Shown here: positions 1-63,313 of the stretch, one piece after another | Layout of the letters: every line of letters begins with the position of its first letter | Position numbering within the stretch: position 1 is the first letter of the stretch | Virus record (IMG/VR): IMGVR_UViG_3300028859_000015 | Source: a virus | Taxonomy: Duplodnaviria > Heunggongvirae > Uroviricota > Caudoviricetes | Length of the DNA stretch: 64,000 bases | Strand: one strand, 5' to 3' | The notes under the pieces: generated by a model | What the model was told of the DNA's origin: nothing | What the model saw: the letters and a program-made list of their open reading frames with translations, nothing else | Database searches by the model: none | Program-made: the position numbers and the translations under genes

Positions 1-1228
1 TCCATAAAATTATGCTTGGTACAGTGTTTTCTTCTTTTTTAAGTCTAGAAATCTCACATAGAACGGGAGCAAAAGCCGTACCACCCGATATGTTTTTGGG
101 AACTTCTTGATATGTCTTAATATCACCTGAAAAGCAAATTTCAGAAGTGTGTAGAATAAGATATACTGGATTTCTGGTGTATTTACAAGTAATTTCTCTA
201 ATAATATTTAGAGCATCATTTAATTGCTCACTTGACATACTTCCAGAGCAATCGAGAACAACCATAAATTTTCTGATTAAGTCTGGGGCAATATCAACCA
301 TAGAAGGAAGTCTTATATTTTTTGGCATCATATGGTCCATTCGAGAACCTCTTCTTGAATATCCATAGTCTTCTGAATTTTCTCTGTCAGTAATGTGCTT
401 TAAAATCTGCCTTAGATTTACTTTTGGAGGCTCAAGAAGCATCTCAAAATCTCTTCCATACTCACTGCCAGACCCAGGAAGCTTATTTGAGTTTTTAGAA
501 GTATAATCTTTTAATTCTGATTTAATAATATCTCTGGCCATTTGTTCTTCTGGAGATAAAGGTTTTCCATTCTCGTCTTTTCCAGAACTTCCATCACCTA
601 CCATATCACCATTTAGAGTCCAACCTTCATAGTCCTTTCCTCTCATACCTACTTTATACATGTCATCATAGGTACCTTCAGCTGAAAGTTTGGCATATTT
701 AGCTGGGTCAAATACAAATTGTTTTTCAAGAACTCCCATAAAACTTGTATAATTAGCATCTGACTTAAAAATACCACTTTCTTTCATTATTCTTGCCACA
801 AACTGATTAATTTGAGCATCTGTAGCTACATTCCAAAGCTTCATATCTCTATGTTGAGCTCTGCCAAAACTATCAAAAACAATATGACCTATCTCATGTA
901 AGATAGTAAAAGAGATACCTAGTTCTGGAGTTTTAAACCATGGCTTGTTTTGTTTAGCTGCCAACATTTCATGAATAGTATATAGTTTAGTAGAAATATA
1001 AATTTTAAAGCTATCAGTAAACGCAAAACTTGGGAATTCTTTTGCTTTATCACTATTATTAATTTCTATATTAATTTGTTGTAAAGCCTGTGAATAGAAG
1101 GGAATCTGTTTTATTATGAATTGTCTTAGACTGGCTAGATTAATGTTTGGAACATTTATATTATCCCAGTCGTCTAAAAGACTCTGGTAGTATGCCTTTA
1201 AATCTGTTGGTGATGTTTTAGCTGCCAT
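1..1228 (-). CDS. HExxH metallopeptidase-like + von Willebrand factor A (MIDAS DCSGS) domain protein; 3' end outside window
   Basis: Minus-strand ORF from ATG 1228 (SD GGAG upstream) with no stop before position 1. Translation contains ILHEIGHIV (HExxH) and VVLDCSGSMSS (vWA MIDAS motif). This architecture commonly partners MoxR-type ATPases. Confidence 0.55.
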   Translation of the reverse strand, partial: MAAKTSPTDLKAYYQSLLDDWDNINVPNINLASLRQFIIKQIPFYSQALQQINIEINNSDKAKEFPSFAFTDSFKIYISTKLYTIHEMLAAKQNKPWFKTPELGISFTILHEIGHIVFDSFGRAQHRDMKLWNVATDAQINQFVARIMKESGIFKSDANYTSFMGVLEKQFVFDPAKYAKLSAEGTYDDMYKVGMRGKDYEGWTLNGDMVGDGSSGKDENGKPLSPEEQMARDIIKSELKDYTSKNSNKLPGSGSEYGRDFEMLLEPPKVNLRQILKHITDRENSEDYGYSRRGSRMDHMMPKNIRLPSMVDIAPDLIRKFMVVLDCSGSMSSEQLNDALNIIREITCKYTRNPVYLILHTSEICFSGDIKTYQEVPKNISGGTAFAPVLCEISRLKKEENTVPSIILW

Positions 1229-1408
1229 TTTTTCTCCATAAAAGGCTAGAGTTAATCTATTTCTATAATTTCAAAATTATTTTTACTTCTATTTCTACGC
1301 TTACATAGTTTAGTAATCCAAAAATTAGCGTTTTCTATTGAAGAAAGTTCAAAATATAAATTTCCAGCATAAAATGTTATATATTCTCCAGAAATTACAT
1401 CTAAAATT

Positions 1409-1627
1409 TTATAGCTTTTCATTAATTTCCTCTATTTCAAACTCCTCCAAAGTTACTTCATAAGATATATCTTTATTATAATCATTCCACGTACCTCCAC
1501 GCTTTGTAACCCAGTTAATATCGTTCTTAATAGACTCCATAGCATCATCATAAGAAATATAAACTAGGTCTGTTCCTGAAAAACTTCTCATATATTGTCC
1601 AGAAGTTATGCATAATATTTTATACAT
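1409..1627 (-). CDS. HIPTG/EFEIIEI small-protein family member
   Basis: N-term MYKILCITSGQYM, C-term EFEIEEINEKL. First copy of tandem array 1. Confidence 0.6.
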   Translation of the reverse strand: MYKILCITSGQYMRSFSGTDLVYISYDDAMESIKNDINWVTKRGGTWNDYNKDISYEVTLEEFEIEEINEKL

Positions 1628-1868
1628 TATCTTCTATCCTTATAATTTCAAATTCGTTCTCATTAGTGACTTGTCCAATATCTACATTTTCATATATCCA
1701 GCAGGGAGATTGTGAATAAGTATATACTATTGACTTAATCCATTCTTGGCAAGCTAATTCAGTATTAAAAGTAGCTTTTCTATTTTTACCAGAATACACA
1801 TATTGCTCTGATGGTATGTGTAAAATAATGTACATATATTTAGAACTTCCAAATATGACTATGACCAA
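1620..1868 (-). CDS. HIPTG/EFEIIEI family member (true start probably internal Met at ~1835)
   Basis: Internal MYIILHIPSEQYVY, C-term NEFEIIRIEDNV. Confidence 0.6.
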   Translation of the reverse strand: MVIVIFGSSKYMYIILHIPSEQYVYSGKNRKATFNTELACQEWIKSIVYTYSQSPCWIYENVDIGQVTNENEFEIIRIEDNV

Positions 1869-2070
1869 TAAATAGTCTTTGAAGTAGTTCTAGCATTTGA
1901 TTTTTCCTTTAGCTATTAGGAGGAAGACTTCTTAATATATAATGCTCTAATGCTTGTATTTTTATATGTAAATCTTGTATATCTGTTTTTAATGCTTGTA
2001 TTTGGTTATTCATTGCTAGACATGAATCTATTAATTTTACCATAGCTTTCATTTCTTGTGGTGTCATTTC

Positions 2071-2313
2071 CTATTCCTCTGTTTTATATTTAATATATGG
2101 ATTTAAAATTTCATCTATTTCTCTCATTGCTGGTGGTAATCCCAAATACATATCTGCTCCTCCTTTACCACCAGATTTCCACAATTTCGGGTCTTTTCGT
2201 ATAGTTTCTAATGTGTTTGTTAGACATTTAGCACAAGGTTTATCATATTTAATATCTCTTGTAGGACCTTGTTGCCAATATTCTCCACAATTATTACATT
2301 TATATGTTGTCAT
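2071..2313 (-). CDS. zinc-ribbon protein (CNNCG...CAKC)
   Basis: 80-aa ORF with two CxxC pairs. Stop/start overlap with neighbours. Confidence 0.4.
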   Translation of the reverse strand: MTTYKCNNCGEYWQQGPTRDIKYDKPCAKCLTNTLETIRKDPKLWKSGGKGGADMYLGLPPAMREIDEILNPYIKYKTEE

Positions 2314-2314
2314 T

Positions 2315-2587
2315 TTATTTCTCCTGTATGGGGTTTGTTTTTATTAGTTCAAATTCAATATAGGATACTGGTTTATAGTTAGAAAATTGTTCACACCTCT
2401 TGTGTTCTGTTCTAATATAATAATCCAAATCTTCATTGTAGTCATTAATAGCATTTATTAAAACCCAATAAGCCTCTGACTTACTTTTAAAATTTTGAGT
2501 ATATACTTCAATATTATAATTATAAATACGCATATATTCTGATGAGGTTAATCTCAATATATTCCAAACTAATTTTTCTTTCTTCAT
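2315..2587 (-). CDS. divergent HIPTG/EFEIIEI-like family member
   Basis: C-term EFELIKTNP. The N-terminus is degenerate but sits in the array context. Confidence 0.45.
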   Translation of the reverse strand: MKKEKLVWNILRLTSSEYMRIYNYNIEVYTQNFKSKSEAYWVLINAINDYNEDLDYYIRTEHKRCEQFSNYKPVSYIEFELIKTNPIQEK

Positions 2588-2833
2588 TTATTCTCCTAGT
2601 TTTATTATTTCAAACTCTTCTTTAGAAATTCCTTCTCCAATATCAGCATTATACTCATTCCAACAAAAAGAATATGTAGAATTTATAGCATGCCACTCTA
2701 AGTTATTATCTATCATTATTTGAGCTTCTTTTTTTGAGTTTAAAAGAATATCACTATTTTTATAGTTTTTTAAATAATGTCCAGTAGGTATATGTAAGAT
2801 TTTATACCTTATCATAAATAACTTCAAATTCAT
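2588..2833 (-). CDS. HIPTG/EFEIIEI family member
   Basis: MIRYKILHIPTGHY ... EEFEIIKLGE. Confidence 0.6.
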   Translation of the reverse strand: MNLKLFMIRYKILHIPTGHYLKNYKNSDILLNSKKEAQIMIDNNLEWHAINSTYSFCWNEYNADIGEGISKEEFEIIKLGE

Positions 2834-3005
2834 TAATTATAAAATTACTCCAATTTATTTGCGGATTCCAATCTATTAAACTTGTTCCAAAGTAGTCTTC
2901 TAAATTATCTATTACTTGTTTAGCTGAAAAATCAGATAAAAACTCCCATGGTGTATCATAATATAGTAGATAAGTCCCAGTAGGTATATGTAAAATTTTA
3001 TACAT
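2802..3005 (-). CDS. HIPTG/EFEIIEI family member
   Basis: MYKILHIPTGTYLLY ... NEFEVIYDKV. Confidence 0.6.
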   Translation of the reverse strand: MYKILHIPTGTYLLYYDTPWEFLSDFSAKQVIDNLEDYFGTSLIDWNPQINWSNFIINEFEVIYDKV

Positions 3006-3008
3006 CTC

Positions 3009-3242
3009 TCATACCTCCACTATCTCAAATAATATCTTGTTTTCTGGTATTACTATATAACTAGCATCTGTTGGATATAGTATAATACGTTCATTTAGTT
3101 TCTCAATAGCTTCTTTTTTTGAATCTACTTCATATATATGATATGAAGATGTATTAGTAATTTCATTAGAACAATATAAATTTCCCTCAGGAAAGAAACA
3201 GTACAAATATTCCCCAGGTTCTATAAATAATATTCTATACAT
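3009..3242 (-). CDS. HIPTG/EFEIIEI family member (MYRILFIE subgroup)
   Basis: MYRILFIEPGEYLYC ... LFEIVEV. One of three near-identical tandem copies. Confidence 0.6.
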   Translation of the reverse strand: MYRILFIEPGEYLYCFFPEGNLYCSNEITNTSSYHIYEVDSKKEAIEKLNERIILYPTDASYIVIPENKILFEIVEV

Positions 3243-3244
3243 AG

Positions 3245-3478
3245 CTATACCTCCACTACCTCAAATAATATCTTGTTTTCTGATATTACTATATAACTAA
3301 TATCTGTTGGATATATTATAATATTTTCATCTAGCTTCTCAATAGCTTCTTTTTTTGAAGCTACTTCATATAAGGAATACAAATTAGAATGAGGGGTATT
3401 ACTTAAGTAATATAAATATCCATCAGTATATAGGCAATATAAATATTCTCCAGTTTCTATAAATAATATTCTATACAT
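3245..3478 (-). CDS. HIPTG/EFEIIEI family member (MYRILFIE subgroup)
   Basis: MYRILFIETGEYLYC ... LFEVVEV. Confidence 0.6.
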   Translation of the reverse strand: MYRILFIETGEYLYCLYTDGYLYYLSNTPHSNLYSLYEVASKKEAIEKLDENIIIYPTDISYIVISENKILFEVVEV

Positions 3479-3480
3479 GG

Positions 3481-3735
3481 CTATACCTCCACTATCTCAA
3501 ATAATAATCTATTATCAGGTATAGTCAATAGAATTTTATTAGCTAGTTCAATCTCTAAAACTTCAGATAGTTTATCAATAGCTTCTTTTTTTGAAGCTAC
3601 TTCATATATTTTAAACTTATAACATATATTCTTAGGAGGATTATTAACTTCATATGAGTAATACAAATTAGCATAAGGGGTATTACTTAAGCAATATAAA
3701 TATTCTCCAGTTTCTATAAATAATATTCTATACAT
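3481..3735 (-). CDS. HIPTG/EFEIIEI family member (MYRILFIE subgroup)
   Basis: MYRILFIETGEYLYC ... LFEIVEV. Confidence 0.6.
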   Translation of the reverse strand: MYRILFIETGEYLYCLSNTPYANLYYSYEVNNPPKNICYKFKIYEVASKKEAIDKLSEVLEIELANKILLTIPDNRLLFEIVEV

Positions 3736-3737
3736 GG

Positions 3738-4010
3738 CTATACCTCTACTATATCAAATAATAACGGATTTTCATCTAAGTAAATATCATTATGAAGTAT
3801 ATCAAGTATAGAAAATGAAGGATACTTAATAGTATCAGTAGCTTCAAATAGTATTTTTGCCTCTTCAATAGTTTTAAATTCCCAAGGAACAAATAGATTC
3901 TGCTCACCATCACCAACTATTTCATAAACAGAAAATTTTGAATCACAGTGAGGAGTGCCAATATATCTATAAATATAATCTCCACTTTCTATATATAATA
4001 TTCTATACAT
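3738..4010 (-). CDS. HIPTG/EFEIIEI family member
   Basis: MYRILYIESGDYIY ... LFDIVEV. Confidence 0.6.
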   Translation of the reverse strand: MYRILYIESGDYIYRYIGTPHCDSKFSVYEIVGDGEQNLFVPWEFKTIEEAKILFEATDTIKYPSFSILDILHNDIYLDENPLLFDIVEV

Positions 4011-4141
4011 AAATATCCACTATATTTCCTAAATAGTTTTTATTGGTTATATATTCTTTTATACCTTCTTTTTTATTTACTGGCTCTACTTTTCTGTAAA
4101 AAGTTATTTCATAATTAGGTATATAATTTGGAAATTGTATA

Positions 4142-4390
4142 TTAGCTATCATATTTATCCTCAATTTCTATTATTTCAAATTCATTTTCTACACATTGTT
4201 GAAAAATAAACCATTTACCAGAGTTTTTCATAGCAATACCTCTTCTAACTATATCGCATACAGTGACTATACAACTATTTCTTAAATTAGTCTTATACAA
4301 GTAAAATTCATGATTTGGTTGTCCACTACAAAGTATACCTAAAAAAGTATATATATATTCTCCAGTGGTTATATGTAAAATACAATACAT
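4142..4390 (-). CDS. HIPTG/EFEIIEI family member
   Basis: MYCILHITTGEYIY ... NEFEIIEIEDKYDS. Confidence 0.6.
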   Translation of the reverse strand: MYCILHITTGEYIYTFLGILCSGQPNHEFYLYKTNLRNSCIVTVCDIVRRGIAMKNSGKWFIFQQCVENEFEIIEIEDKYDS

Positions 4391-4391
4391 A

Positions 4392-4634
4392 TCATTCTCC
4401 TATTCTTATTATTTCAAATTCATTTTTATTGGTTTGATATAAGTTATGAAAAACTGGTTTTGAATTTGATATGTATATTCCTATTTCTACTATCGTTAAT
4501 ATACAAGCATTACACATTTCTATTGAGTTTACTTTAATGATTTTATATAGAGAATTTTTAAGTTCTCCACTATAAAATGTACCACTATAACTATATACAT
4601 ATTCTCCAGTTGTTATATGTAGAATAGTATACAT
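4392..4634 (-). CDS. HIPTG/EFEIIEI family member
   Basis: MYTILHITTGEYVY ... NEFEIIRIGE. Confidence 0.6.
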   Translation of the reverse strand: MYTILHITTGEYVYSYSGTFYSGELKNSLYKIIKVNSIEMCNACILTIVEIGIYISNSKPVFHNLYQTNKNEFEIIRIGE

Positions 4635-4635
4635 A

Positions 4636-4863
4636 TTATTTCTTTATTTCTACAAAGGTAACTTCAGAAAATAAATTATCAAGTCCTGCTGAACTTTCTT
4701 TAATTTCATGATTAAACGTAGTATATCGTAAAGTAGTTAGGATAACTTGTCGTAAAATATCAGCTTTATCAAATTTATCTTCTGGTATATTTCTAATAGT
4801 TATAGGTTTATTATAATAGTCCATAACATAAGTTCCAGTAGGTATATGTAGAATTTTATACAT
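4636..4863 (-). CDS. HIPTG/EFEIIEI family member (divergent C-term)
   Basis: MYKILHIPTGTYVMDY ... VTFVEIKK. Confidence 0.55.
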   Translation of the reverse strand: MYKILHIPTGTYVMDYYNKPITIRNIPEDKFDKADILRQVILTTLRYTTFNHEIKESSAGLDNLFSEVTFVEIKK

Positions 4864-4865
4864 AG

Positions 4866-5084
4866 CTAATCCTCCAGTCTTATTATTTCAAATTCATTTA
4901 TTGCTACAACTGTTCCTATATGTTTGTTATGTTCATTCCAGCCTAGGTAATTTAGTTTAGACAAAGCTAATATACACTTAATCTGTGTAGTTGCTTGTTT
5001 AATACTTTTGTAAATATCATTATTTCCATCACAGTCTTTTAGATATTCTCCAGAAGGGATATGAAGAATATAACATCTTTTCAT
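4866..5084 (-). CDS. HIPTG/EFEIIEI family member
   Basis: CYILHIPSGEYLK ... NEFEIIRLED. Confidence 0.6.
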   Translation of the reverse strand: MKRCYILHIPSGEYLKDCDGNNDIYKSIKQATTQIKCILALSKLNYLGWNEHNKHIGTVVAINEFEIIRLED

Positions 5085-5135
5085 TTAATCCTCATTTCTT
5101 TTATAGAATTAAGTATGTAAATATAAGGAGGTAAT

Positions 5136-5309
5136 ATGTCAGATTTCGTATGGTTTATTATTAGTTTCGTGGCCGGTTTTATTGTTGGTGCTCTTGTTTT
5201 TAAGAACAATGAAAAAATAGTAGCTGCTGATACCGCCAAAGTAAGTTCAGTGGTAGCAGAAGTAAAAACAGTAGTAGCTGATGTTGAAAAAGACGCAAAG
5301 AAACTATAA
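5136..5309 (+). CDS. small membrane protein (57 aa, N-terminal TM helix)
   Basis: SD AAGGAGG 6 nt before ATG. Sequence MSDFVWFIISFVAGFIVGALVF... Below the 60-aa cutoff of the ORF track. Followed by a terminator. Confidence 0.45.
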   Translation: MSDFVWFIISFVAGFIVGALVFKNNEKIVAADTAKVSSVVAEVKTVVADVEKDAKKL

Positions 5310-19771: not shown

Positions 19772-20103
19772 ATCTCTAACTCCAATTCTATATTGCCCAT
19801 TTGTTTCATGGCCTCTTTACATCTCTCACAAAATTGTCCGGTTCTTACATGCCATTTAAAACATCTAGGACATTTAGCAATATCTAAAGAATTTCTATGT
19901 TCTGTGAAATACTCTAAACATTTTTGTTTGATACTATCTTCAGAAAGACCTTCCTCATTAATAATTTCAAAGTAATAAATTTGACTATAATTACTAAAAC
20001 AAACTCTATATACATCTCCATATTCATATGCTGATGCTTTAATATCTAACATTTTTTCTTTATTTTTAGAAGCTTTTACTTGAAGTTTCCAGGTTATATT
20101 CAT
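19768..20103 (-). CDS. zinc-ribbon protein
   Basis: CPRCFKWH...CERCKEAM. Confidence 0.4.
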   Translation of the reverse strand: MNITWKLQVKASKNKEKMLDIKASAYEYGDVYRVCFSNYSQIYYFEIINEEGLSEDSIKQKCLEYFTEHRNSLDIAKCPRCFKWHVRTGQFCERCKEAMKQMGNIELELEI

Positions 20104-20471
20104 TTATCATCCTCAATTTCTATTATTTCAAATTCATTTTTTGTTAGTGGCTTTTCTCTATTAATGGCTCTTACTTTAAGTGTATCATACTTAATAAATA
20201 AAGGATGAGTGATACTAATATCTTCTTCTAAATAATAAAACTTTTCTATTGTTTTTCCACAATTAGTTTTTCCAGTTCCCTTTCCTAATCTGTAGCTATC
20301 TATAATTTGACCTGCTCTACCTTTAGTATTTGAAGTAGCTAATTGAGTTTTAGTAGTTTTTTCACAGTATTCCATTAAATAGGTTCCAGAAAGTATATGA
20401 AAAATCTTAAATTTCTTACTTTCTGTAGCTTTATATCCAGCTTCTTTTAATTGTTGTTTAAGAGATTTCAT
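20100..20471 (-). CDS. HIPTG/EFEIIEI family member (long N-terminal extension)
   Basis: ...FHILSGTYLMEY ... NEFEIIEIEDDK. Confidence 0.55.
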   Translation of the reverse strand: MKSLKQQLKEAGYKATESKKFKIFHILSGTYLMEYCEKTTKTQLATSNTKGRAGQIIDSYRLGKGTGKTNCGKTIEKFYYLEEDISITHPLFIKYDTLKVRAINREKPLTKNEFEIIEIEDDK

Positions 20472-20770
20472 ATAATCAGTCTCCTTAAAATACCGCCCAG
20501 TTTAATTCTTTTTAGAATTAGAGGCTGGGCTACGTGGAGGTCTATGGCCTAATATCAACTACTATCCAAAAGTTCCTCCAATAACTTTTCCATTTGAAAT
20601 ATTAGGAAAAAATCTGCTAAAATCTACTCTACACTCTGCTGTAACAATAGTTTCTGGAGGTATTACTGAAACTCCATATTTAAGTGCTTTTCTGATAAAT
20701 GAATCTAAGGTTAACTGTTCCTCTATTAAAAGTCTAATCATACTTTCTCTGAACTGTTCTTGGGAGGACA

Positions 20771-21034
20771 TTAATAGTCTCCTAGAGAATCTGGAAGTTC
20801 AACTATTTCAAATTCATTTCTAATAAGCGGATAAACTATTTTGTTAGTTTCAAAAAAGGAATCATTCTTACTCCAAGTAAACATAGCTTCTAATATCTCT
20901 TCTGGATTAGTAGCATATTTATTTGTTTTAATATTTTTAATATTGTGATTATATAAAATTTCTAAAATAGAAGAATCTTCATAGCCAAATACTAAATACC
21001 TTGCTTCTGGTATATATAAAATCCTATATTTCAT
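20771..21034 (-). CDS. HIPTG/EFEIIEI family member
   Basis: MKYRILYIPEARY ... NEFEIVELPD. Confidence 0.55.
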   Translation of the reverse strand: MKYRILYIPEARYLVFGYEDSSILEILYNHNIKNIKTNKYATNPEEILEAMFTWSKNDSFFETNKIVYPLIRNEFEIVELPDSLGDY

Positions 21035-21035
21035 A

Positions 21036-21347
21036 TTATATTTCTACTATATCAAATTCTAATTTAGTTGTTATCGGACCTGGAATATTGTTATAATTAA
21101 ATATATTTGTCATTAAAGCAAGTTTTCTATCGTCTTTTCTCTTTTCATTATAGGTAAGTCTATGACCAATAAACCATTTGGCTGCCTTTTCTGTTTTAAA
21201 TTCTAAATATTCCCAAGAATCCGAGTATAGATTTATAGTTAGATTTTCTTTTATTTCAGGAGGCATTTTATATAATATTTCATAGCCTATAAAAGGTTCA
21301 ATTTTAAGATAATCACCGCCAGAAGTATAACAAATTATTCTAAACAT
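21036..21347 (-). CDS. divergent HIPTG/EFEIIEI family member
   Basis: MFRIICYTSGGDY ... EFDIVEI. Confidence 0.5.
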   Translation of the reverse strand: MFRIICYTSGGDYLKIEPFIGYEILYKMPPEIKENLTINLYSDSWEYLEFKTEKAAKWFIGHRLTYNEKRKDDRKLALMTNIFNYNNIPGPITTKLEFDIVEI

Positions 21348-21924
21348 TTAAATAAGCTCTATACCGTGAAGATTTGAAAATTCTTTAGTTTCTATCTCTG
21401 TATTAAACGGACCAAAAACTGAAAGTTGTTTTTTAGTATTTTCATCAATAACTAATAGAAAATATTTATATTGAGAAATAACTCCTGATGTGGTAATAAT
21501 TTCTTTTTTTTCAATATATCCCCTGTCTTTGTGAACATGCCTCCCCAAACTACCTAATGTTTGAGGCGGTTTTACGGATAAGTTCATTGGAAGTTTTGTT
21601 CCAATATAGCCACCTAATTTAGATATTGGCATCTTTATTCTCCTCTATTTTTATTATTTCAAAGCACTGACTATCCTCAGTGAGATAGTATTTCTGGCCC
21701 TCATGCTTAATAAAATCTGTGGTAACAGGGGCAAAATATTCTTCCCAACTAGATTTCTTAAACACCTGTAGGGCAGCTTTTTTAGAGGTAAAAAATAAAC
21801 ATTCATAACCTTCTATCCAATATTTAGTTTCTTCCGGAGAAAATAGAGCAGAATTAGGGGAATGATTTTCCTACCTGTGTATACAAATATTCTCCACTTG
21901 GAATAAATAAGATAGCATATTTCA

Positions 21925-22218
21925 TTATTCTATCCTTATAACTTTTCCATAAATAGTATGAGTCCAACCATTATCTCTGTGATGGTTGTTAGATATTAAA
22001 TATCCTTTATTAGAATCTGTTTTTGTAATTAGGTGAGCATCTATTGTTCGGCCAGATACACAGCAAAATACTATATCCCCTACTTCGTAATATTCTTGTT
22101 TTTGAAAAGTTAAGAGGCTACCACTTTTTATAATAGGCATCATAGAATTTCCAAAGCATTTCATTTTACCAGTTCCTACAGTGACTAACTCATTTTTGAG
22201 CCTTTCATATTTATTCAT
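21925..22218 (-). CDS. S24 (LexA/UmuD-like) peptidase domain protein
   Basis: GNSMMPIIKSGSLLTF ... GDIVFCCVSGRT resembles the S24 Ser-Lys dyad peptidase core. No HTH domain. Confidence 0.5.
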   Translation of the reverse strand: MNKYERLKNELVTVGTGKMKCFGNSMMPIIKSGSLLTFQKQEYYEVGDIVFCCVSGRTIDAHLITKTDSNKGYLISNNHHRDNGWTHTIYGKVIRIE

Positions 22219-22498
22219 TTATTTTTATTACCTCAAATAAACTTCTATTTTTAAGACTACAAAGTGAAATTTCCTCTCCATTCATTACTACATAAGAATC
22301 ACCATTCCTACAGTCCTTACTTTTCCAATAAGTATTACAAAATATAACTTCAGCATCTTTTTTGGAGGGAAATAAAGCCAATTCTACATCATCTATACAG
22401 TGGGTTCTTACTTCCTCTTCTGAAAATATAAATCCGTTATGGATAGCTGTTCCAATATATAAATAATCTCCTGTTAAGATATTCAAAATAGCATACAT
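22211..22498 (-). CDS. divergent HIPTG/EFEIIEI family member
   Basis: MYAILNILTGDYLY ... LFEVIKINE. Confidence 0.5.
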   Translation of the reverse strand: MYAILNILTGDYLYIGTAIHNGFIFSEEEVRTHCIDDVELALFPSKKDAEVIFCNTYWKSKDCRNGDSYVVMNGEEISLCSLKNRSLFEVIKINE

Positions 22499-22816
22499 TA
22501 AAACTCATCCATTTCAGAGGAATAATAAAAAATATTCTTAGCTTCTTTACATTCCGGAGGAAGAGCAGTAACTACTTGCTTCCTCATTTTATCATATACT
22601 AAAACTATCTCAGTATTTTTATATACTACAAGATGAACAGTAATTCTATTACTTTGCTTTGCCAAAAATTTCACTTCTTTTTTATCATTGTTTTTAATTT
22701 TTCCTATCAAACACTCACAATCAGTATCAGTTAGAGTTAAATTATATCTTTGAAGAAGCCGTTTTTTAAAGTGTTTTCTTTCTTGGTCTCGTTTGTTCAT
22801 GTTCCTTTATTTTTCA

Positions 22817-23104
22817 TTAGTCATCAGCTACTAATTCAAAATAGCTTAATGGAATTGGGTTAGCTTCATCATAGCCTACTATATCTATGTCAGCAAAAGT
22901 ATATAATTTTGTATAAAATCTTATGTGAGATACTGCTTCAATAATTTCTTGAATTGATGTACTTGTTTTATAAATTTTATTATAACTATAAGTATAAGCT
23001 TCTATTGAATCTAAAGGAGAAAGTATTCCCACTGAGGGAATTTTAAAAAATCTTACATACTTACCACTAGGAATATATAAAAGTTCTTTCATACTAGATA
23101 TCAA
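22817..23104 (-). CDS. HIPTG/EFEIIEI family member (LLYIP subgroup)
   Basis: ELLYIPSGKYV ... YFELVADD. Confidence 0.5.
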   Translation of the reverse strand: MISSMKELLYIPSGKYVRFFKIPSVGILSPLDSIEAYTYSYNKIYKTSTSIQEIIEAVSHIRFYTKLYTFADIDIVGYDEANPIPLSYFELVADD

Positions 23105-23357
23105 CTACTTCAAACATTTCTCTTGTTATATATGAACTGTATAAATCATATCTAGCATAAAAATTATTGCTAAATTGTTCAGATGTTATGGCCCCTATAA
23201 CAGAACTTTCAGTTAATTTATTTCCATTAGTCCAAGTTAATTTGTTATAGTCATCATTATTGTTTCTAACCTTTATGTATTCTTCTATGGAATATTCTTT
23301 GCCGTCTATATTTATAGTAATAAACTTACTATCTGGAATATATAAAAGTTGTCTCAT
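23094..23357 (-). CDS. HIPTG/EFEIIEI family member (LLYIP subgroup)
   Basis: MRQLLYIPDSKF ... MFEVVDI. Confidence 0.5.
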   Translation of the reverse strand: MRQLLYIPDSKFITINIDGKEYSIEEYIKVRNNNDDYNKLTWTNGNKLTESSVIGAITSEQFSNNFYARYDLYSSYITREMFEVVDI

Positions 23358-23578
23358 TTATTTATTATCTCAAAATGATTTTTTTCTAATTGGTCTTTAG
23401 ATGGTAAACCGTTTCTATCAAAAAAAGTATCACTAAATGTACCGTCTAATATTTTATTTATCACAAACTGCTCAGATACGTTCCATTTTTTAGTGTATTC
23501 TTCTAAAGAACCCATAGTATTCTCTTTAATATAAAAAGAAATATAATTACTATTAGGAATGTAAAGTAGCTGTTTCAT
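23354..23578 (-). CDS. HIPTG/EFEIIEI family member (LLYIP subgroup)
   Basis: MKQLLYIPNSNY ... HFEIINK. Confidence 0.5.
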   Translation of the reverse strand: MKQLLYIPNSNYISFYIKENTMGSLEEYTKKWNVSEQFVINKILDGTFSDTFFDRNGLPSKDQLEKNHFEIINK

Positions 23579-23588
23579 TAGTTCTCTC

Positions 23589-23978
23589 CTAGTCCCATTT
23601 ATGAGTTATAACATTTTCTGAATAAGCATTTTGTAATGGAATACTTATTTCCTCATCATATACCCTAGAAGTAACACAATGACATACTCTACACTCCCAC
23701 ATAAAATTAAACCAAAGTTTCAATTGTCTCCTCTTAAAAACCGAAGCTGGTAGCCACTTACAACAAGTTCTGTCAGGTTTATACTTATCTCGGCAAAAGC
23801 TATCCTGCCTATCAACTCTTTTTTTCCATTTATTTTGTACATTCCGTGAAATTTTACCTGTAATCTTAAATTTTATACTTAGGTGTTTAATCTTAGCTAA
23901 ACAAATTAGTAAATCATTTTCTTCTATTTTTTTATTTACTCGTAATATTTTTTCTTTGTATTTATTCTTTTTTTTCAT
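23589..23978 (-). CDS. Cys-rich hypothetical protein
   Basis: 129 aa with multiple Cys/His (CRDKYKPDRTCCKW...CRVCHC). Confidence 0.4.
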   Translation of the reverse strand: MKKKNKYKEKILRVNKKIEENDLLICLAKIKHLSIKFKITGKISRNVQNKWKKRVDRQDSFCRDKYKPDRTCCKWLPASVFKRRQLKLWFNFMWECRVCHCVTSRVYDEEISIPLQNAYSENVITHKWD

Positions 23979-23981
23979 TCT

Positions 23982-24236
23982 TTATACCTCAACTATAGCT
24001 AAGGATTCTGTATCAACCTTATGAAAGATACAAATAGTTTCTGAGAGTCTATATCTATAACAAGCTGCGTTATCTGACTCTTCTAATCTCTCTATAGCCT
24101 GTTTCTCATTATGTGCTTTATATATATGATGGTTACTGTGTCCATATATTGTTAACTCATATTCAGTATATAACGACACATTATTCTCTACTTCATATAA
24201 AAATTCTCCAGTTTCTATAACTAATATACTATACAT
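23982..24236 (-). CDS. HIPTG/EFEIIEI family member (MYRIL-like)
   Basis: MYSILVIETGEFLY ... LAIVEV. Confidence 0.55.
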   Translation of the reverse strand: MYSILVIETGEFLYEVENNVSLYTEYELTIYGHSNHHIYKAHNEKQAIERLEESDNAACYRYRLSETICIFHKVDTESLAIVEV

Positions 24237-26574: not shown

Positions 26575-26844
26575 TTAGGTATCTATTAGCTCAAATTCAG
26601 ATTCTAATATTGGTTTAGAAGTATCAATCTCAGCACTTTTATAAGTAGTCTCAGTATAACGTCCTTCATAAAAAGCTTTAAGTATATTATCATAAGAAGT
26701 TTCCCAAATAACATGAAAACTATCAGTATGGTTATCCATAAGCTTGGCTTTGGCTAGACAGCTTGTTAAATATTCCTCTATAGAGACTTGACCACAATTA
26801 AATTTTACATATCTACCACTTGGTATATATAATAGTTCTTTCAT
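26575..26844 (-). CDS. HIPTG/EFEIIEI family member (LLYIP subgroup)
   Basis: MKELLYIPSGRYV ... SEFELIDT. Confidence 0.5.
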   Translation of the reverse strand: MKELLYIPSGRYVKFNCGQVSIEEYLTSCLAKAKLMDNHTDSFHVIWETSYDNILKAFYEGRYTETTYKSAEIDTSKPILESEFELIDT

Positions 26845-29459: not shown

Positions 29460-29867
29460 CTATTCTTTGGTATTTTCTACTTCTGAGCTATTCGTTCCAG
29501 GCAAGCAACAGTCTCCATTTTCAAAAGCTTCCTGACAGTTTTCACAATTCTCATCACACGTTCCAGAATAGCTATCTTCCTTATTTAACTCTTCAAAAAG
29601 TTCCTTTGCTGTGCTAAATCTTGGAGTAGACTTATTGTCCAGCATTTCATCACACTCTTTCATTGCCTCAATAGTTTCTTGATTTGGGATTAATTCTCTA
29701 TTGTATTCAGCTATTTCTTCATCTAATAATTCAGCAATTGGTGCTGAATATGGTGAAGTCATATTAGAAAATCCTGGAAAACATGAAACCAAATAAGCAT
29801 CATGAGTCTTAACTCGCTGAAGATGATTACCACGTTTAGTAGTTCTATTATTTTTTGATTTTGACAT
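29460..29867 (-). CDS. acidic Cys-rich hypothetical protein
   Basis: SD AAGGAG upstream. C-terminal CDENCENCQEAFENGDCC. Confidence 0.45.
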   Translation of the reverse strand: MSKSKNNRTTKRGNHLQRVKTHDAYLVSCFPGFSNMTSPYSAPIAELLDEEIAEYNRELIPNQETIEAMKECDEMLDNKSTPRFSTAKELFEELNKEDSYSGTCDENCENCQEAFENGDCCLPGTNSSEVENTKE

Positions 29868-30097
29868 TTTGTATCTCCTTCTTTGGTAGTTTAATAATCT
29901 GTAATTCTTTTATGTTAAAGTAATTATATGATGGATCATTAATCAAGTTAGATATAGGACACCCAAGATCTTCCAAACAACTCAAATAACGTTTAGCCTC
30001 TCGTTTATACTTCCACATTACATCAAAAGCATAACAAAAACCATTTTCAGAGTAATAAACTTTAAGATACTCTCCAGAAAGAATATGTAAAATACAT
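29855..30097 (-). pseudogene. frameshifted HIPTG/EFEIIEI family copy
   Basis: ATGTATTTTACATATTCTTTCTGGAGAGTATCTTAA: the start codon is out of frame with the ILHILSGEYLK...ELQIIKLPKKE body. Consistent with a small deletion right after the start. Confidence 0.5.
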
Positions 30098-30099
30098 TA

Positions 30100-30321
30100 T
30101 TAATGTACCCAAACTATATCAAACTCAGAAATAAGTGGAGAATAGTAAGCAGTATTGCCTTCAATAAAATGAGTAAGTTGAGATGAACGCCGATCACCAC
30201 CACTAAAATAGTAGTTAAATACCTTCTCTATTTCCTCTTTAGACTGTGTTTTATATATCTCATGACCATCTTTAACACGCACTAAAAAACTTCAGCTTGG
30301 TATATGTAGAATTGCCCACAT
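30100..30321 (-). pseudogene. HIPTG/EFEIIEI family copy with in-frame TGA at the conserved Gly codon
   Basis: ATG TGG GCA ATT CTA CAT ATA CCA AGC TGA: MWAILHIPS*, where the family has IP[ST]G. The remaining frame continues to ...EFDIVWVH. The ORF track only recovered a GTG-initiated fragment at 30100..30282. Confidence 0.5.
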
Positions 30322-31225: not shown

Positions 31226-31438
31226 TTATTCCTCCAATTCTATAATTTCATAGAGGTTCTTATTTTTGAGAGCATCATACCTATACCACATACAATCGTT
31301 ACAATTAGTACCATAACACTTTTTATATTTTATACAAGCTCTTGTTATTACATAAAACAAATCATGAATCTTATTTTCTTCTATACAAGCTTCTTCAAAC
31401 TCTCCAGTTGGGATATGTAGACTTCTATATTTCTTCAT
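31226..31438 (-). CDS. HIPTG/EFEIIEI family member
   Basis: YRSLHIPTGEFEEA ... LYEIIELEE. Confidence 0.55.
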   Translation of the reverse strand: MKKYRSLHIPTGEFEEACIEENKIHDLFYVITRACIKYKKCYGTNCNDCMWYRYDALKNKNLYEIIELEE

Positions 31439-61357: not shown

Positions 61358-61633
61358 TTATATAACCCTGCCAATATCTCTCAAATATTCTATTTCTTTG
61401 TCAGATATCTCAATTATCTCAAACTCATTCTTACAAATTTTAATATAATATTCAGAACCATATAAATTACAATAACCATTATTTAAGACATTAATAGCTT
61501 CTTCCATAGTTTTAAGACACATAAAATTATATGAATTATGAGTTAACGTGACATAACAAACAGAATCTTTTGGAGTTTCTGTTAATATAGGTCTAATATA
61601 TTCTCCGGTTGGTATATGTAATATCTTATACAT
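61358..61633 (-). CDS. HIPTG/EFEIIEI family member
   Basis: MYKILHIPTGEYIRP ... NEFEIIEISDKE... Confidence 0.6.
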   Translation of the reverse strand: MYKILHIPTGEYIRPILTETPKDSVCYVTLTHNSYNFMCLKTMEEAINVLNNGYCNLYGSEYYIKICKNEFEIIEISDKEIEYLRDIGRVI

Positions 61634-61886
61634 TCTTATCTTCTATCTCTATTATCTCAAATTCATTTTCACAAATATCAGTTATCCATGAAGGTTTATC
61701 ATTAATACGAACTGTAATACCATTAAGTTTTCTAACATATTTTAGAATTCTAGCTAAACAATATTCAGCATCAAGTATATCAGGATAAGTTTGAACCATA
61801 TATAAAGGAAAATCAGCAAATACAGGACTAGATAGTATACCAGAATAATAAGTACCGGTAGGAATATGTAATATTAAATATCTCAT
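61626..61886 (-). CDS. HIPTG/EFEIIEI family member
   Basis: MRYLILHIPTGTYYSG ... ENEFEIIEIEDKNV. Confidence 0.6.
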   Translation of the reverse strand: MRYLILHIPTGTYYSGILSSPVFADFPLYMVQTYPDILDAEYCLARILKYVRKLNGITVRINDKPSWITDICENEFEIIEIEDKNV

Positions 61887-62117
61887 TTTATTTCTATTAT
61901 CTCAAATTCATTTTCACAAGACACTTCAAAACAGCCCTGATTATTAATATAGATATATTGATTTTTTATACTGTTAGTTGTAAGCTCTTCAACCTTTCTG
62001 ATATTAATCATATTGGCCGTATTTTTATCATTAGAAAATACGGCAATATTATACAAAAAAAATATCCGTTTCAGCATTATACCAAGTACCGGTTAATATA
62101 TGAAAAATATAATACAT
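61883..62117 (-). pseudogene. HIPTG/EFEIIEI family copy frameshifted at a T8/A8 homopolymer
   Basis: Frame A: MYYIFHILTGTWYNAETDIFFV*. Frame B (track ORF 61883..62077): ...IFFLYNIAVF...CENEFEIIEIK. The switch occurs at the a8 run at 62054..62061. Confidence 0.5.
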
Positions 62118-62125
62118 CTAATCTC

Positions 62126-62371
62126 CTATATCTTTATTTCTATTATAGCCAATTCATTTTCTAATATCAGCATAGTCTCTAATGTATCATTAATAAGAAA
62201 ATATGCCGGATTATTTTTACAGTAATTCAATATACTACTTATTTTAAATATACTATCTTTATTATTTTTAAACTCTTTACTATAGTCATACCTATCACTA
62301 AAAGTAGGAATATCTATAGCGCCCATAAATGTATAATAGCTACCTGTCGGAATATGTAATATCTTATACAT
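62126..62371 (-). CDS. HIPTG/EFEIIEI family member
   Basis: MYKILHIPTGSYYTF ... ENELAIIEIKI. Confidence 0.6.
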   Translation of the reverse strand: MYKILHIPTGSYYTFMGAIDIPTFSDRYDYSKEFKNNKDSIFKISSILNYCKNNPAYFLINDTLETMLILENELAIIEIKI

Positions 62372-62630
62372 TATTGTCTTCTATCCTCTTGTATTCTATC
62401 TCTATTACTTCAAATTCATCTCTATCTGGTATCCTATAACTATCCTCAAAACGTACTTCAGTATGTAACATATGAAGTAAATAGCTAGTAGCTTTCTCTA
62501 AAGTAATAAAGGAACTTGACAAACCAATATAGGAGGTAGTAAATATCAAATGACCAGCAAAACCTCTAACTTCTCCAATATAAGTTCCGCTTAATAAATG
62601 TAGTATTTTATATCTAATCCCATCTCTCAT
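62364..62630 (-). CDS. HIPTG/EFEIIEI family member
   Basis: RYKILHLLSGTYIGE ... DEFEVIEIEYK. Confidence 0.55.
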   Translation of the reverse strand: MRDGIRYKILHLLSGTYIGEVRGFAGHLIFTTSYIGLSSSFITLEKATSYLLHMLHTEVRFEDSYRIPDRDEFEVIEIEYKRIEDNNV

Positions 62631-62907
62631 CTATTATTTCAAACTCATTAAAGTTAACATAGATTATATTAATAGTTTGTGTTTGTTTATAGTTTGGACT
62701 TATATTTATTTGTGATACCCCTAATAACTTTTTTAGGTCATTATAGGCGGATTCATAAGAGGTAAAATATTTAGCCCATTCAAAGTCTACAAATAAAAGT
62801 AAATGATTTATTACATGTGTAGAGCTATAATAAAATTGTCCTGATGGTATGTGTTTTATTTTATAATTCATATTAAGATATGGCATAGAAATAGAGAATG
62901 TTTTCAT
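62614..62907 (-). CDS. HIPTG/EFEIIEI family member
   Basis: YKIKHIPSGQFYY ... NEFEIIDERWD. Confidence 0.55.
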   Translation of the reverse strand: MKTFSISMPYLNMNYKIKHIPSGQFYYSSTHVINHLLLFVDFEWAKYFTSYESAYNDLKKLLGVSQINISPNYKQTQTINIIYVNFNEFEIIDERWD

Positions 62908-62952
62908 ATTAATTTCCAGATATAACTTAATTTCTGGATTCTTTATAATAAA

Positions 62953-63126
62953 ATACTAACTAATTTCTATTACCTCATAATTACTAGAAAACTCTGGGCA
63001 TTGTATTGTTATCCAGCCAATCATACTTTCTGCCGTTTGCTTCCTAGAAAATATCCAACGCTCATGAATACTATTAGGAACATATTCTCCAGATATTACG
63101 TTAAGAATAACATATTGTTTAGCCAT
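62953..63126 (-). CDS. HIPTG/EFEIIEI family member (57 aa, below track cutoff)
   Basis: MAKQYVILNVISGEYV ... NYEVIEIS. Confidence 0.45.
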
Positions 63127-63313
63127 TTACTAAATTCCATGAATCCCTACTTATATTAATATCTACTTTAATTGCCTCATATTTATCTTCGCCATATAAT
63201 AAATTAGCAAATGAAGCATATCTGTAAGCTGCTCTTTCTGTTTGCCAGTACCATTTAATACACACATCTGCTGGAACATATTGGCCCTCTAAAATACTCA
63301 GCACAGCATACAT
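63119..63313 (-). CDS. divergent family-like small protein
   Basis: SD GAAGGGG. MYAVLSILEGQYV... The track ORF extends to 63421, but that would overlap the plus-strand gene; an internal Met with a good SD is more likely. Confidence 0.4.
   Translation of the reverse strand: MYAVLSILEGQYVPADVCIKWYWQTERAAYRYASFANLLYGEDKYEAIKVDINISRDSWNLVNG

What the first reader, a model, noticed from the sequence alone, without database searches (positions are those of the whole stretch)
1409..5084. Massive paralogous small-protein family with conserved termini and hypervariable cores
At least 33 genes of 57-100 aa in this 64-kb window share an N-terminus M-Y-[KR]-I-L-H-I-P-[TS]-G-x-Y and a C-terminus [NE]-E-F-E-I-[IV]-E-I-E-D, with unrelated 40-60-aa cores. 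They form four arrays: 13 tandem copies at 1409-5084, a cluster at 20100-24236 plus 26575, 29855-31438, and eight copies at 61358-63313. Both ends are conserved at the nucleotide level: ccagtaggtatatgtaagattttatacat recurs on the plus strand at gene starts, and tattatttcaaattcatt at gene ends. That pattern is expected for recombination between copies or cassette shuffling rather than simple divergence. Three near-identical MYRILFIETGEYLYC copies (3009-3735) show very recent duplication. Sub-families coexist in the window: HIPTG/NEFEIIEIED, LLYIPSG/FE[LV]V, and MYRILFIE/FEIVEV. I do not recognise this family from any characterised phage or bacterial protein. The paired conserved termini around a variable core suggest a β-hairpin clasp presenting a variable surface, as in diversified binder, decoy or anti-defence arsenals.
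Basis: seen in the sequence. Interest (0 to 1): 0.9.

Follow-up and report, generated by a model that had tools for sequence, protein, structure and literature searches.

The report
Expanded small-protein family in uncultured phage
A clade of large uncultured phages gives roughly a fifth of the genes in this window to one undescribed family of ~80-residue proteins that share a conserved beta-sheet scaffold and fast-evolving middles, a pattern that suggests, but does not show, a host-interaction or anti-defence role.

Summary

Independent assemblies reproduce the region at 97-100% identity, so it is not an assembly artefact. The family matches nothing in Pfam, PHROGs, NCBIfam, PADLOC, PDB sequences, cultured phages or 185,579 prokaryotic species genomes. 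It occurs only in metagenomic contigs of one clade of ~220-kb phages, with 128 distinct members in 153 kb.

- **Conserved ends:** they are protein-level scaffold (dN/dS 0.15 and 0.27, against 0.40 for cores). Their nucleotide conservation follows mostly from amino-acid conservation plus AT-rich codon usage. N- and C-terminal types co-vary, so free cassette shuffling is not supported.
- **Recombination:** it does occur at the ends. One strain carries a 208-nt deletion that fuses two neighbours inside the N-terminal motif. Copies are gained, lost and pseudogenised between strains.

Function is unknown. An accessory host-interaction or anti-defence arsenal is the best guess.

The parts
1252..5084 (-). 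Array 1: 14 family genes with stop-inclusive low ends at 1252, 1409, 1620, 2315, 2588, 2802, 3009, 3245, 3481, 3738, 4142, 4392, 4636 and 4866. Three unrelated small genes interrupt it: 1909-2067, the Zn-ribbon gene 2071-2313, and 4003-4164. The array sits between the MoxR-like ATPase gene and the DUF2201 gene.
   Evidence: synteny with L001 and L013
3009..4010 (-). MYRIL[FY]IExGxY...LF[ED]IVEV subfamily, four tandem genes. Read as a ~236-nt period repeat at 79-83% identity; proteins are 33-68% identical. Synonymous identity is higher at the ends than in the cores.
4866..5084 (-). Representative HIPSG/NEFEII member (72 aa) used for structure model 1.
   Evidence: pLDDT 93.3, pTM 0.81
20100..24236 (-). 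Array 2: members at 20100, 20771, 21036, 22211, 22817, 23094, 23354 and 23982. Interspersed with an S24-like 97-aa gene and other small genes.
21619..21925 (-). Frameshifted (decayed) member. The N part MKYAILFIPSGEYLY... and the C part ...CFEIIKIEE are in different frames. The counterpart in strain L010 is intact.
20999..22186 (-). Block that is only 50-85% identical between this strain and L010, while the flanks are ~100% identical. The left breakpoint interval contains the C-terminal end of gene 22211-22498. The right one lies just after the N-terminal motif of gene 20771-21034.
26575..26844 (-). Solitary LLYIPSG/SEFELIDT member (89 aa) used for structure model 2. The identical protein occurs in many metagenome assemblies.
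29848..30321 (-). Two adjacent decayed copies. Gene A has its ATG at 30321 and a TGA nonsense at codon 10. Gene B (29848-30096) lost its ATG through a 5-nt deletion. Both are intact in L010. L009 fuses them into one intact chimera through a 208-nt deletion.
31226..31438 (-). Solitary member (70 aa), MKKYRSLHIPTGEF...LYEIIELEE.
61358..63313 (-). Array 4: eight members at 61358, 61626, 61883 (frameshifted, with the N motif MYYIFHILTGTWY in another frame), 62126, 62364, 62614, 62956 and 63119.

Best explanation
This is a real multigene family, specific to one phage clade, of small (56-123 aa), mostly acidic, soluble single-domain alpha/beta proteins.

The conserved N-terminus (M-Y-K-I-L-H-I-P-T/S-G-x-Y) is predicted to form a beta-hairpin, and the conserved C-terminus (N-E-F-E-I-I-E) a terminal beta-strand. 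Together they would form the scaffold sheet (inferred). The 40-60 residues between them form 2-3 helices and loops that keep the architecture but evolve fast.

The genes are packed head to tail in co-oriented arrays. Starts and stops overlap or lie 0-3 nt apart. The acidic C-terminal codons often carry the Shine-Dalgarno sequence of the next gene, so the arrays are probably translated as coupled polycistrons (inferred).

The family evolves by birth and death: tandem duplication, divergence of whole genes into subfamilies, pseudogenisation, replacement of blocks between strains, and unequal homologous recombination between the conserved ends of neighbours. That recombination changes copy number and makes chimeras.

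The most likely role (inferred, not shown) is an arsenal of non-essential accessory proteins, each binding a different host or defence target through its variable helical face. They would be expressed with the non-structural genes among which the arrays sit.
For: Family and extent:
- define the family and its copies in the window.
- Searches find 144 ORFs, 128 of them distinct, in 153 kb from 6 loci of 3-4 related lineages. One relative has 35 copies in 20 kb.

Fold:
- Two distant subfamilies give the same architecture at pLDDT 93.3 and 88.7.
- They also share the same weak structural neighbours.

Coding under selection:
- Orthologue dN/dS is 0.15 for the N-terminus, 0.40 for the core and 0.27 for the C-terminus.
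- Neighbouring enzyme genes give 0.04-0.13, and other fast-evolving unknown genes 0.24-0.47.

Ends are a protein-level constraint:
- Codon identity at identical residues is only 5 points above the codon-usage expectation.
- N-terminal and C-terminal types co-vary.

Packing and coupling:
- Spacings between consecutive family genes are -8, -4 and 0 to 3 nt.
- 15 of 31 starts have an SD-like motif, and 10 of these lie inside the upstream member's C-terminal codons.

Turnover:
- Array 1 holds 14, 13 and 8 copies at the same syntenic site in three lineages.
- The window carries at least 4 pseudogenes.
- Strain L009 has a chimeric deletion at the N-terminal motif.
- A mosaic block has breakpoints at family gene ends.

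Charge and context:
- Median pI is 5.1 and 73% of members are acidic.
- Neighbouring genes are nucleotide metabolism, RNA ligase, IF3 and AAA+ ATPases, not virion genes.
Against: - There is no functional evidence of any kind: no homologue of known function, no expression data, no known host.
- Overall dN/dS is below 1, so there is no gross signal of diversifying selection. dS is near saturation, which makes the test crude.
- Several copies are decaying, which fits weak selection on individual genes.
- Evidence for recombination at the ends rests on one clean deletion, one mosaic block with ~120-nt breakpoint intervals, and a modest synonymous-site excess in one subfamily (84% vs 69%, p 0.0017).
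Confidence: 0.55

Rival explanations
1. The conserved ends are mainly DNA- or RNA-level elements at gene boundaries (regulatory or recombination cassettes like the PeSLs of T4-type phages). The protein motifs would be a by-product, and the cores would be unrelated ORFans shuffled between these elements.
For: - The C-terminal motif plus the next N-terminal motif form a ~60-70-nt near-repeat at each junction, and the nucleotide motifs recur.
- C-terminal codons often hold the next gene's SD sequence.
- A deletion junction lies in the motif.
- PeSL-mediated shuffling is documented in T4-type phages (PMC2839356).
Against: - Conservation follows codons: synonymous variation is near the codon-usage expectation, and dN/dS is 0.15-0.27 at the ends.
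- Solitary members not followed by another member keep both motifs (26575, 31226).
- N- and C-terminal types co-vary with whole-gene subfamilies.
- Both ends are confidently modelled as strands.
- Promoter-like and terminator-like sites are not enriched: 42 vs 43.9 and 1 vs 2.3.
Confidence: 0.08
2. The family consists of adaptor or regulator proteins for the phage's own AAA+/protease machinery (MoxR-like ATPase with DUF2201/VWA partner, 595-aa AAA+ protein, ClpP in relatives). Each paralogue would deliver a different host protein to it.
For: - Array 1 lies between the MoxR-like ATPase and DUF2201 genes in all three lineages.
- Members flank the 595-aa AAA+ gene in the window (26575 and 29848) and ClpP in L006 and L012.
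Against: - No ClpS Pfam match turned up in any member.
- Adjacency may only reflect insertion hot spots in a genome that is full of these arrays.
Confidence: 0.1
3. The proteins are degenerate, catalytically dead derivatives of a GIY-YIG-like nuclease domain, remnants or offshoots of homing endonucleases.
For: - The two conserved tyrosines are 10 residues apart in a beta-hairpin (Y2...Y12), which resembles GIY-(10-11)-YIG (the GIY-YIG spacing is from my own knowledge).
- A beta-beta-alpha-alpha-beta order ends in an acidic strand.
Against: - hhalign against the I-TevI catalytic domain gives probability 0.08%.
- None of 36 members matches PF01541, even at E<=1.
- There is no conserved Arg in helix 1, and no helix with the conserved Asn after the last strand, because the proteins end there.
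Confidence: 0.06
4. The proteins are packaged internal or ejected virion proteins, and the shared N-terminus is a capsid-targeting peptide, as in the polymorphic internal proteins of T-even phages.
For: A conserved ~12-residue N-terminus on otherwise divergent small proteins, in a variable locus, resembles the T4 IP/CTS arrangement (my own knowledge).
Against: - The N-terminus is modelled with pLDDT >90 as an integral strand of the fold.
- The C-terminus is equally conserved, which a targeting peptide does not explain.
- The arrays sit among non-structural genes.
- No consistent [LI]-x-E cleavage motif is seen.
Confidence: 0.04
5. The expansion is largely neutral or selfish: duplication-prone DNA with little function per copy.
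For: - At least 4 of ~36 copies are pseudogenes in this strain.
- Copy number varies between lineages.
- Core dN/dS of 0.40 is relaxed.
Against: - dN/dS is clearly below 1 for nearly all orthologue pairs.
- Subfamilies persist across lineages whose conserved ATPase is only 79% identical.
- Reading frames and the fold are maintained in 128 distinct members.
Confidence: 0.12

Closest known systems
PeSL-flanked ORFan cassettes in the hyperplastic regions of T4-type phages (Arbiol et al. 2010, PMC2839356; PMC4122927)
   Same: Both have clusters of small non-essential genes of unknown function in plastic regions of large phage genomes. In both, a short conserved sequence repeated at gene boundaries serves as substrate for recombination that inserts, deletes and replaces genes between close relatives (here).
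   Different: PeSLs are non-coding promoter plus stem-loop cassettes between unrelated ORFans. Here the repeated boundary sequence is coding, belongs to the protein fold, and the genes are true paralogues. No promoter or terminator signature was found.
Multigene families of large eukaryotic DNA viruses (for example ASFV MGF110/360/505 and poxvirus host-range families); comparison from my own knowledge
   Same: Both have dozens of tandem paralogues, copy-number variation between isolates through recombination, more conserved terminal segments, and birth-and-death dynamics. The role there is host-range or immune evasion, which here is only presumed.
   Different: This is a tailed-phage clade. 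The proteins are much smaller (~80 aa), single-domain and unrelated in sequence. Function here is untested.
Polymorphic internal proteins (IPI-III and alternatives) of T-even phages with a shared capsid-targeting sequence; comparison from my own knowledge
   Same: Both have a conserved N-terminal segment on divergent small proteins in a variable locus. The T-even proteins include an anti-restriction example (IPI*).
   Different: Here the N-terminus is a structural strand and not a cleaved signal. The C-terminus is conserved too. Copy number is 10-fold higher, and the genes are not next to head genes.
Anti-CRISPR AcrIC8 (PDB 8g9s_A)

Membership tests
Any described protein family (Pfam-A, PHROGs v4, NCBIfam 20, PADLOC-DB 2, PDB sequences) | A significant, or at least consistent, profile match across members | tested here: not met
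   36 members were scanned one by one. No family is matched by more than 2 members, and nothing falls below E 0.002. A profile search against PDB sequences gives a best E of 0.58.
GIY-YIG nuclease superfamily | GIY...YIG hairpin with two Tyr ~10-11 residues apart | tested here: inconclusive
   Y2 and Y12 are conserved and 10 residues apart in the predicted hairpin. The flanking G and I/V-G residues of the motif are absent.
GIY-YIG nuclease superfamily | Conserved catalytic Arg in helix 1, Glu on or after strand 3, and Asn in the following helix | tested here: not met
   There is no conserved Arg; helix 1 consensus is S-x-x-x-A..I...L. The proteins end at the last strand, so the Asn helix is missing.
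GIY-YIG nuclease superfamily | Sequence-profile or significant structural similarity to members | tested here: not met
PeSL regulatory cassettes of T4-type phages | Intergenic sigma-70-like promoter plus stem-loop terminator flanking the ORFs | tested here: not met
   Genes abut or overlap (-8 to +3 nt). Promoter-like sites number 42 against 43.9 expected, and terminator-like sites 1 against 2.3.
PeSL regulatory cassettes of T4-type phages | Recombination between repeated boundary motifs causing indels and replacements between close relatives | tested here: met
   L009 has a 208-nt deletion with its junction in the N-terminal motif. There is also a mosaic block with breakpoints at family gene ends.
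Viral multigene family (ASFV-MGF-like concept) | Many tandem paralogues whose copy number varies between isolates | tested here: met
   The window has 33-36 copies. The syntenic array 1 has 14, 13 and 8 copies in three lineages. Strain-level gain, loss and pseudogenes are seen.
Viral multigene family (ASFV-MGF-like concept) | Role in host range or immune evasion | not testable with these tools
   No host is known, and there are no expression or phenotype data.
T-even internal proteins with capsid-targeting sequence | Cleavable N-terminal targeting peptide that is not part of the fold | tested here: not met
   The N-terminal 12 residues are modelled as a hairpin strand with pLDDT 93-96. No consistent protease-site motif is present.
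Anti-CRISPR / anti-defence proteins | Homology or significant structural similarity to a known inhibitor, or demonstrated inhibition | tested here: inconclusive
ClpS-type protease adaptors | ClpS fold or profile | tested here: not met

The most novel reading that the evidence does not exclude
The family is a new fold used as a diversifiable scaffold. A conserved three-stranded sheet, built from the two chain ends, would present a hypervariable helical face. On this reading the phage clade carries perhaps 60-100 paralogues per genome (my extrapolation from the sampled loci), each neutralising or redirecting a different host defence or host protein, possibly by handing it to the phage's own AAA+/ClpP machinery. 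Arrays would expand and contract by recombination at the scaffold-coding ends. That would be the largest dedicated counter-defence or host-takeover arsenal known to me in a tailed phage.
Probability: 0.2. Interest if true: 0.85.

Novelty: new variant of a known kind. Interest (0 to 1): 0.66.

Why it matters
Paralogue expansions on this scale are, to my knowledge, unusual in tailed phages. By my estimate the family makes up about a fifth of the genes in this 64-kb window, and it covers about 44% of the DNA in a 20-kb stretch of a relative.

The family is invisible to every annotation library tried, yet it gives confident structure models. That makes it an accessible test case for how phages generate and maintain diversity in accessory proteins.

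If the paralogues are binders of host or defence proteins, this would be a ready-made natural library of ~80-residue proteins on one scaffold. It could yield new anti-defence activities and would be of interest for protein engineering.

The strain-level data show array remodelling by recombination inside coding scaffold motifs. This is a coding analogue of PeSL-mediated shuffling in T4-type phages.

Tried and rejected
- **Annotation libraries.** Pfam, PHROGs, NCBIfam and PADLOC scans of single members and of all 36 alignment members gave no consistent match.
- **Cultured phages.** tblastn of a member found nothing relevant. blastn of 6.6 kb of flanking genes found no match. The ATPase and DnaB proteins are at most 29% identical to any isolate.
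- **Prokaryotic genomes.** A motif scan of 185,579 species genomes confirmed no relative.
- **GIY-YIG lead.** It came from the Y-x10-Y hairpin. hhalign and the missing catalytic residues rule it out.
- **Mantel tests.** Distances between ends and cores within the window gave N vs C r=0.23 (p 0.02), and the core correlations were not significant. Raw local scores are a poor metric, so I replaced this with the motif-class contingency test on 115 members.
- **Concerted-evolution test.** I compared orthologue identity with best same-genome paralogue identity at the ends. The paralogue was closer in 5 of 14 N-termini and 2 of 12 C-termini, so there is no clear homogenisation.
- **Promoters and terminators.** The scan and a k-mer search of intergenic gaps found no enriched signal.
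- **Literature.** Full-text searches found no description of this family or of the source samples.
- **Tool limit.** The search for related loci with the whole-family alignment failed, because no stretch was conserved enough.

Full report

Yes. The ORF list for 1-7000 shows back-to-back minus-strand genes of 56-90 aa that begin M-Y-K/R-I-L-H/F-I-x-T/S-G-x-Y and end in N-E-F-E-I-I-E-like sequences.

- **Copies found.**
  - A profile built from 14 seed members and iterated over every stop-to-stop segment of at least 35 codons in all six frames converged on 35-36 segments. All are on the minus strand.
- Restricting to ATG-started ORFs of 45-140 aa gives 33 at E<=1e-3.
- **Clusters.**
  - 13 members lie inside 1409-5084, plus one more at 1252-1422.
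  - 8 intact copies and 1 frameshifted copy lie in 20100-24236.
  - There is one at 26575, two at 29848-30321, one at 31226, and eight at 61358-63313.
  - Array 1 is not purely family genes. The 1909-2067 gene, the Zn-ribbon gene at 2071-2313 and the 4003-4164 gene are unrelated, and they are conserved in a relative.
- **Nucleotide motifs.** Both quoted motifs recur far above chance.
- **Not an artefact.** Independent assemblies from ENA, JGI and Logan reproduce window 16.6-37 kb at 97-100% identity.

**2. What kind of genome is it?**

- **Composition and gene content.**
  - The window is ~30% G+C with nearly all genes on one strand.
  - It encodes a MoxR-like AAA_5 ATPase, HNH endonucleases, dCMP deaminase, ThyX, NUDIX, an RNA ligase, a 595-aa AAA+ protein, an SPFH protein, an OmpA-domain protein, IF3, a DnaJ-domain protein and tRNAs.
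  - It is the non-structural part of a large phage genome.
- **Relatives.**
  - Relatives sit on metagenomic contigs of 220,571 bp and, for another lineage, 233,172 bp.
  - No cultured phage is close. There is no DNA match. The ATPase is 27% identical to that of cyanophage S-TIM5, and the DnaB of a relative is 29% identical to that of Bacillus phage SP-10.

**3. How widespread is the family?**

- An exhaustive profile search of 1.84 billion cluster representatives found 215 proteins at E<=1e-3. All are 56-108 aa and match over their full length. None is fused to a larger protein.
- Every hit examined comes from a metagenome and is unnamed or called 'hypothetical protein'.
- No member was found in 185,579 prokaryotic species genomes or in 50,697 phage records. 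Only about five IMG/VR contigs carry the family.
- Every contig retrieved belongs to the same clade and is full of copies.
  - There are 24 in 20 kb of L001, 16 in L007, 14 in 12.5 kb of L006, 35 in 20 kb of L012 and 24 in 16.8 kb of L013.
  - Over six loci (153 kb) this makes 144 ORFs, 128 of them distinct.
- Array 1 occupies the same syntenic slot, between the MoxR-like ATPase and the DUF2201 gene, in three lineages. It holds 14, 13 and 8 family genes.

**4. Are these proteins, and do they share a fold?**

- **Selection.**
  - Twenty reciprocal-best orthologue pairs between the window and the ~75%-identical relatives give dN/dS of 0.11-0.82.
  - Pooled values are 0.15 for the first 14 residues, 0.40 for the core and 0.27 for the last 12.
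  - Neighbouring enzyme genes give 0.04-0.13, and other unknown genes 0.24-0.47.
  - The genes are therefore coding and under purifying selection. It is strongest at the ends and relaxed in the middle.
- **Structure models.**

| Model | Protein | Subfamily | pLDDT | pTM | Elements |
|---|---|---|---|---|---|
| 1 | 4866-5084 | HIPSG/NEFEII | 93.3 | 0.81 | strands 4-8 and 13-14, bridge 22-25, helices 28-43 and 51-56, strand 65-69 |
| 2 | 26575 | LLYIPSG/SEFELIDT | 88.7 | 0.76 | strands 2-6 and 11-13, helices 22-37, 51-59 and 65-69, strand 84-88 |

- **Reading of the models.**
  - Both models have the same architecture: an N-terminal hairpin, helices, and a C-terminal strand.
It is overstated at the family level, because semi-conserved aromatic positions and a helix pattern persist and the architecture is shared.
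  - I infer that the conserved ends are the sheet of the fold. I could not open the coordinates to confirm that the strands pair.

**5. Why are the ends conserved in DNA?**

- **Whole family.**
  - It is mostly because the amino acids are conserved and the codon usage is strongly AT-biased.
  - At positions where two paralogues have the same residue, the same codon is used in 62.7% of cases at the ends, against 57.4% expected from the family's own codon usage. In the cores it is 59.5% against 58.8%.
  - An earlier estimate with codon usage taken from long genes gave a larger apparent excess. That excess reflects the family's preference for ATA.
- **Ends move together.** N-terminal and C-terminal motif classes are strongly associated over 115 distinct members (chi2 68.7, p 6e-10, Cramér's V 0.45). 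For example, the xIExGEY N-terminus goes with LFEIVEV in 15 of 21 cases. Whole genes therefore diverge together into subfamilies, and these subfamilies are shared by different lineages. This speaks against free cassette shuffling as the main process.
- **Local homogenisation.** Within the MYRILF subfamily the ends do show more synonymous identity than the cores (84% vs 69%, p 0.0017), which suggests local homogenisation between neighbours. A test for concerted evolution across the family was inconclusive.
- **Overlapping signals.**
  - Part of the C-terminal tail is constrained by overlap. 15 of 31 starts have a GGAG/GAGG/AGGA motif 3-13 nt upstream, and 10 of these lie inside the preceding member's last codons (...VEV*, ...LED*, ...LGE*).
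  - Four junctions are 8-nt overlaps (ATGTATAA), in which N-V-stop and M-Y-K share bases.
  - In L012 the junction pattern implies an analogous overlap, ATGACTAA, linking Y-D-stop to M-T-K (the sequence is inferred from the protein ends, not read directly).

**6. Does recombination act on the ends?**

Yes, at the strain level.

- **A fused pair.**
  - At window 29848-30321, strain L010 (97% identical overall) has two intact neighbours: MWAILHIPSGSF...SEFDIVWVH and MYSILHILSGEY....
  - The window and L011 carry a GGA-to-TGA nonsense at codon 10 of the first gene and a 5-nt deletion that removes the ATG of the second.
  - Strain L009, otherwise 99.9-100% identical to the window, has a 208-nt deletion. 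Its junction falls in the shared ...ATT(C/T)TACATAT... of the two N-terminal motifs and creates an intact chimera, MWAILHILSGEYLKVYY....
- **A replaced block.**
  - 331 of the 604 differences between the window and L010 lie between 22186 and 20999, inside array 2.
  - The left breakpoint interval contains the C-terminal end of gene 22211-22498. The right one lies just after the N-terminal motif of gene 20771-21034.
  - Within the block, L010 has an intact gene where the window has a frameshifted one.
  - A second divergent block, 36008-36785, lies outside the family, so mosaicism is not exclusive to the arrays.
- **Other traces.** One more frameshifted copy lies at 61883-62120. P0039 carries a remnant N-terminus fused upstream of a full copy.
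- **Overall pattern.** This is birth-and-death evolution, with unequal recombination between scaffold-coding ends.

**7. What does it do?**

Unknown. The following points bear on it:

- The proteins are small and stand-alone, and mostly acidic (median pI 5.1).
- The genes are tightly coupled in co-oriented arrays among non-structural genes.
- The middles evolve fast on a fixed scaffold, and individual copies are dispensable.
- Copy number differs between lineages.

This is the profile of accessory host-interaction or counter-defence genes. That reading is my best guess, at about 40% for the functional part. The structural and evolutionary description stands at about 90%.

Alternatives considered:

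- **DNA-level cassettes.** Largely refuted.
- **Adaptors for the phage's AAA+/ClpP/MoxR machines.** The gene adjacency and the weak ClpS-like neighbours are suggestive only.
- **Degenerate GIY-YIG domains.** The Y-x10-Y hairpin is intriguing. But hhalign gives probability 0.08%, there is no PF01541 hit, and the catalytic residues are missing.
- **Packaged internal proteins.** Unlikely.
- **Neutral expansion.** Argued against by purifying selection and by subfamilies that persist across lineages.

**8. Comparison with what is known**

- The closest mechanistic analogue is PeSL-mediated modular shuffling in the hyperplastic regions of T4-type phages (PMC2839356; PMC4122927). Here the recombining boundary repeat is coding and is part of the fold, and the genes are paralogues.
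- The closest evolutionary analogue is the multigene families of large eukaryotic DNA viruses (my own knowledge).
- The family is not a member of any described protein family, judged by the tests listed in the membership table.

**9. Verdict**

- The structural intuition is broadly right, and the cassette-shuffling inference is only partly right.
- Function remains open.
- I rate it a new variant of a known kind (a viral multigene family or hyperplastic accessory array), with interest 0.66.

Noticed in passing
window 49903-50139, 50771-51085, 51982-52218, 54365-54562, 54566-54763, 56361-56600, 58793-58984 (all minus strand): A second paralogous family of seven small proteins (63-104 aa). Each starts MLKSV[RK]xQV and consists of tetrapeptide repeats x-N-Q-V/I. 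It appears as 12-nt period tandem repeats (TTGATTATATAC on the plus strand). The copies are scattered around the DUF6745 gene and a 522-aa gene.
   Followed up: partly
window 34105-34608 (-): The phage encodes a full-length translation initiation factor IF3 (IF3_N plus IF3_C). It is 85% identical between lineages, with dN/dS 0.10.
   Followed up: partly
window 1-1239 and 5388-6674 (-); L001 8393-15680; L013 4780-9897: A MoxR-like AAA_5 ATPase gene and a DUF2201 (VWA-like) gene, which I would expect to be adjacent partners (my own knowledge), are separated by family array 1 in all three lineages.
   Followed up: partly
L013 7893-8255: A Zn-ribbon protein, homologous to window 2071-2313, is fused in frame to a family domain of the window 2315-2587 type. 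This is the only fusion of the family to another module that I saw.
   Followed up: no
window 36008-36785: A second block of ~200 clustered differences between this strain and L010 covers an unknown 243-aa gene and the start of the OmpA-domain gene, while the flanks are ~100% identical. This is another recombinational replacement, outside the family.
   Followed up: partly
window 37381-37452 (-), 30949-31022 (-), 43456-43540 (-): Rfam reports a tRNA at 37381-37452 that ARAGORN did not list. ARAGORN's tRNA-Gln and tRNA-Leu were not listed by the Rfam gathering search. The window probably has three tRNA genes.
   Followed up: no
L007 18050-19084: An IS605 OrfB/TnpB (Cas12f-like) gene is inserted next to the array-2 region in the relative. 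It is absent from the window.
   Followed up: no
window 21926-22218 (-); L007 16312-16605: A 97-aa protein with a weak Peptidase_S24 match (from gene calls on L007 and L009) is conserved inside array 2. It lies in the strain-variable block.
   Followed up: no
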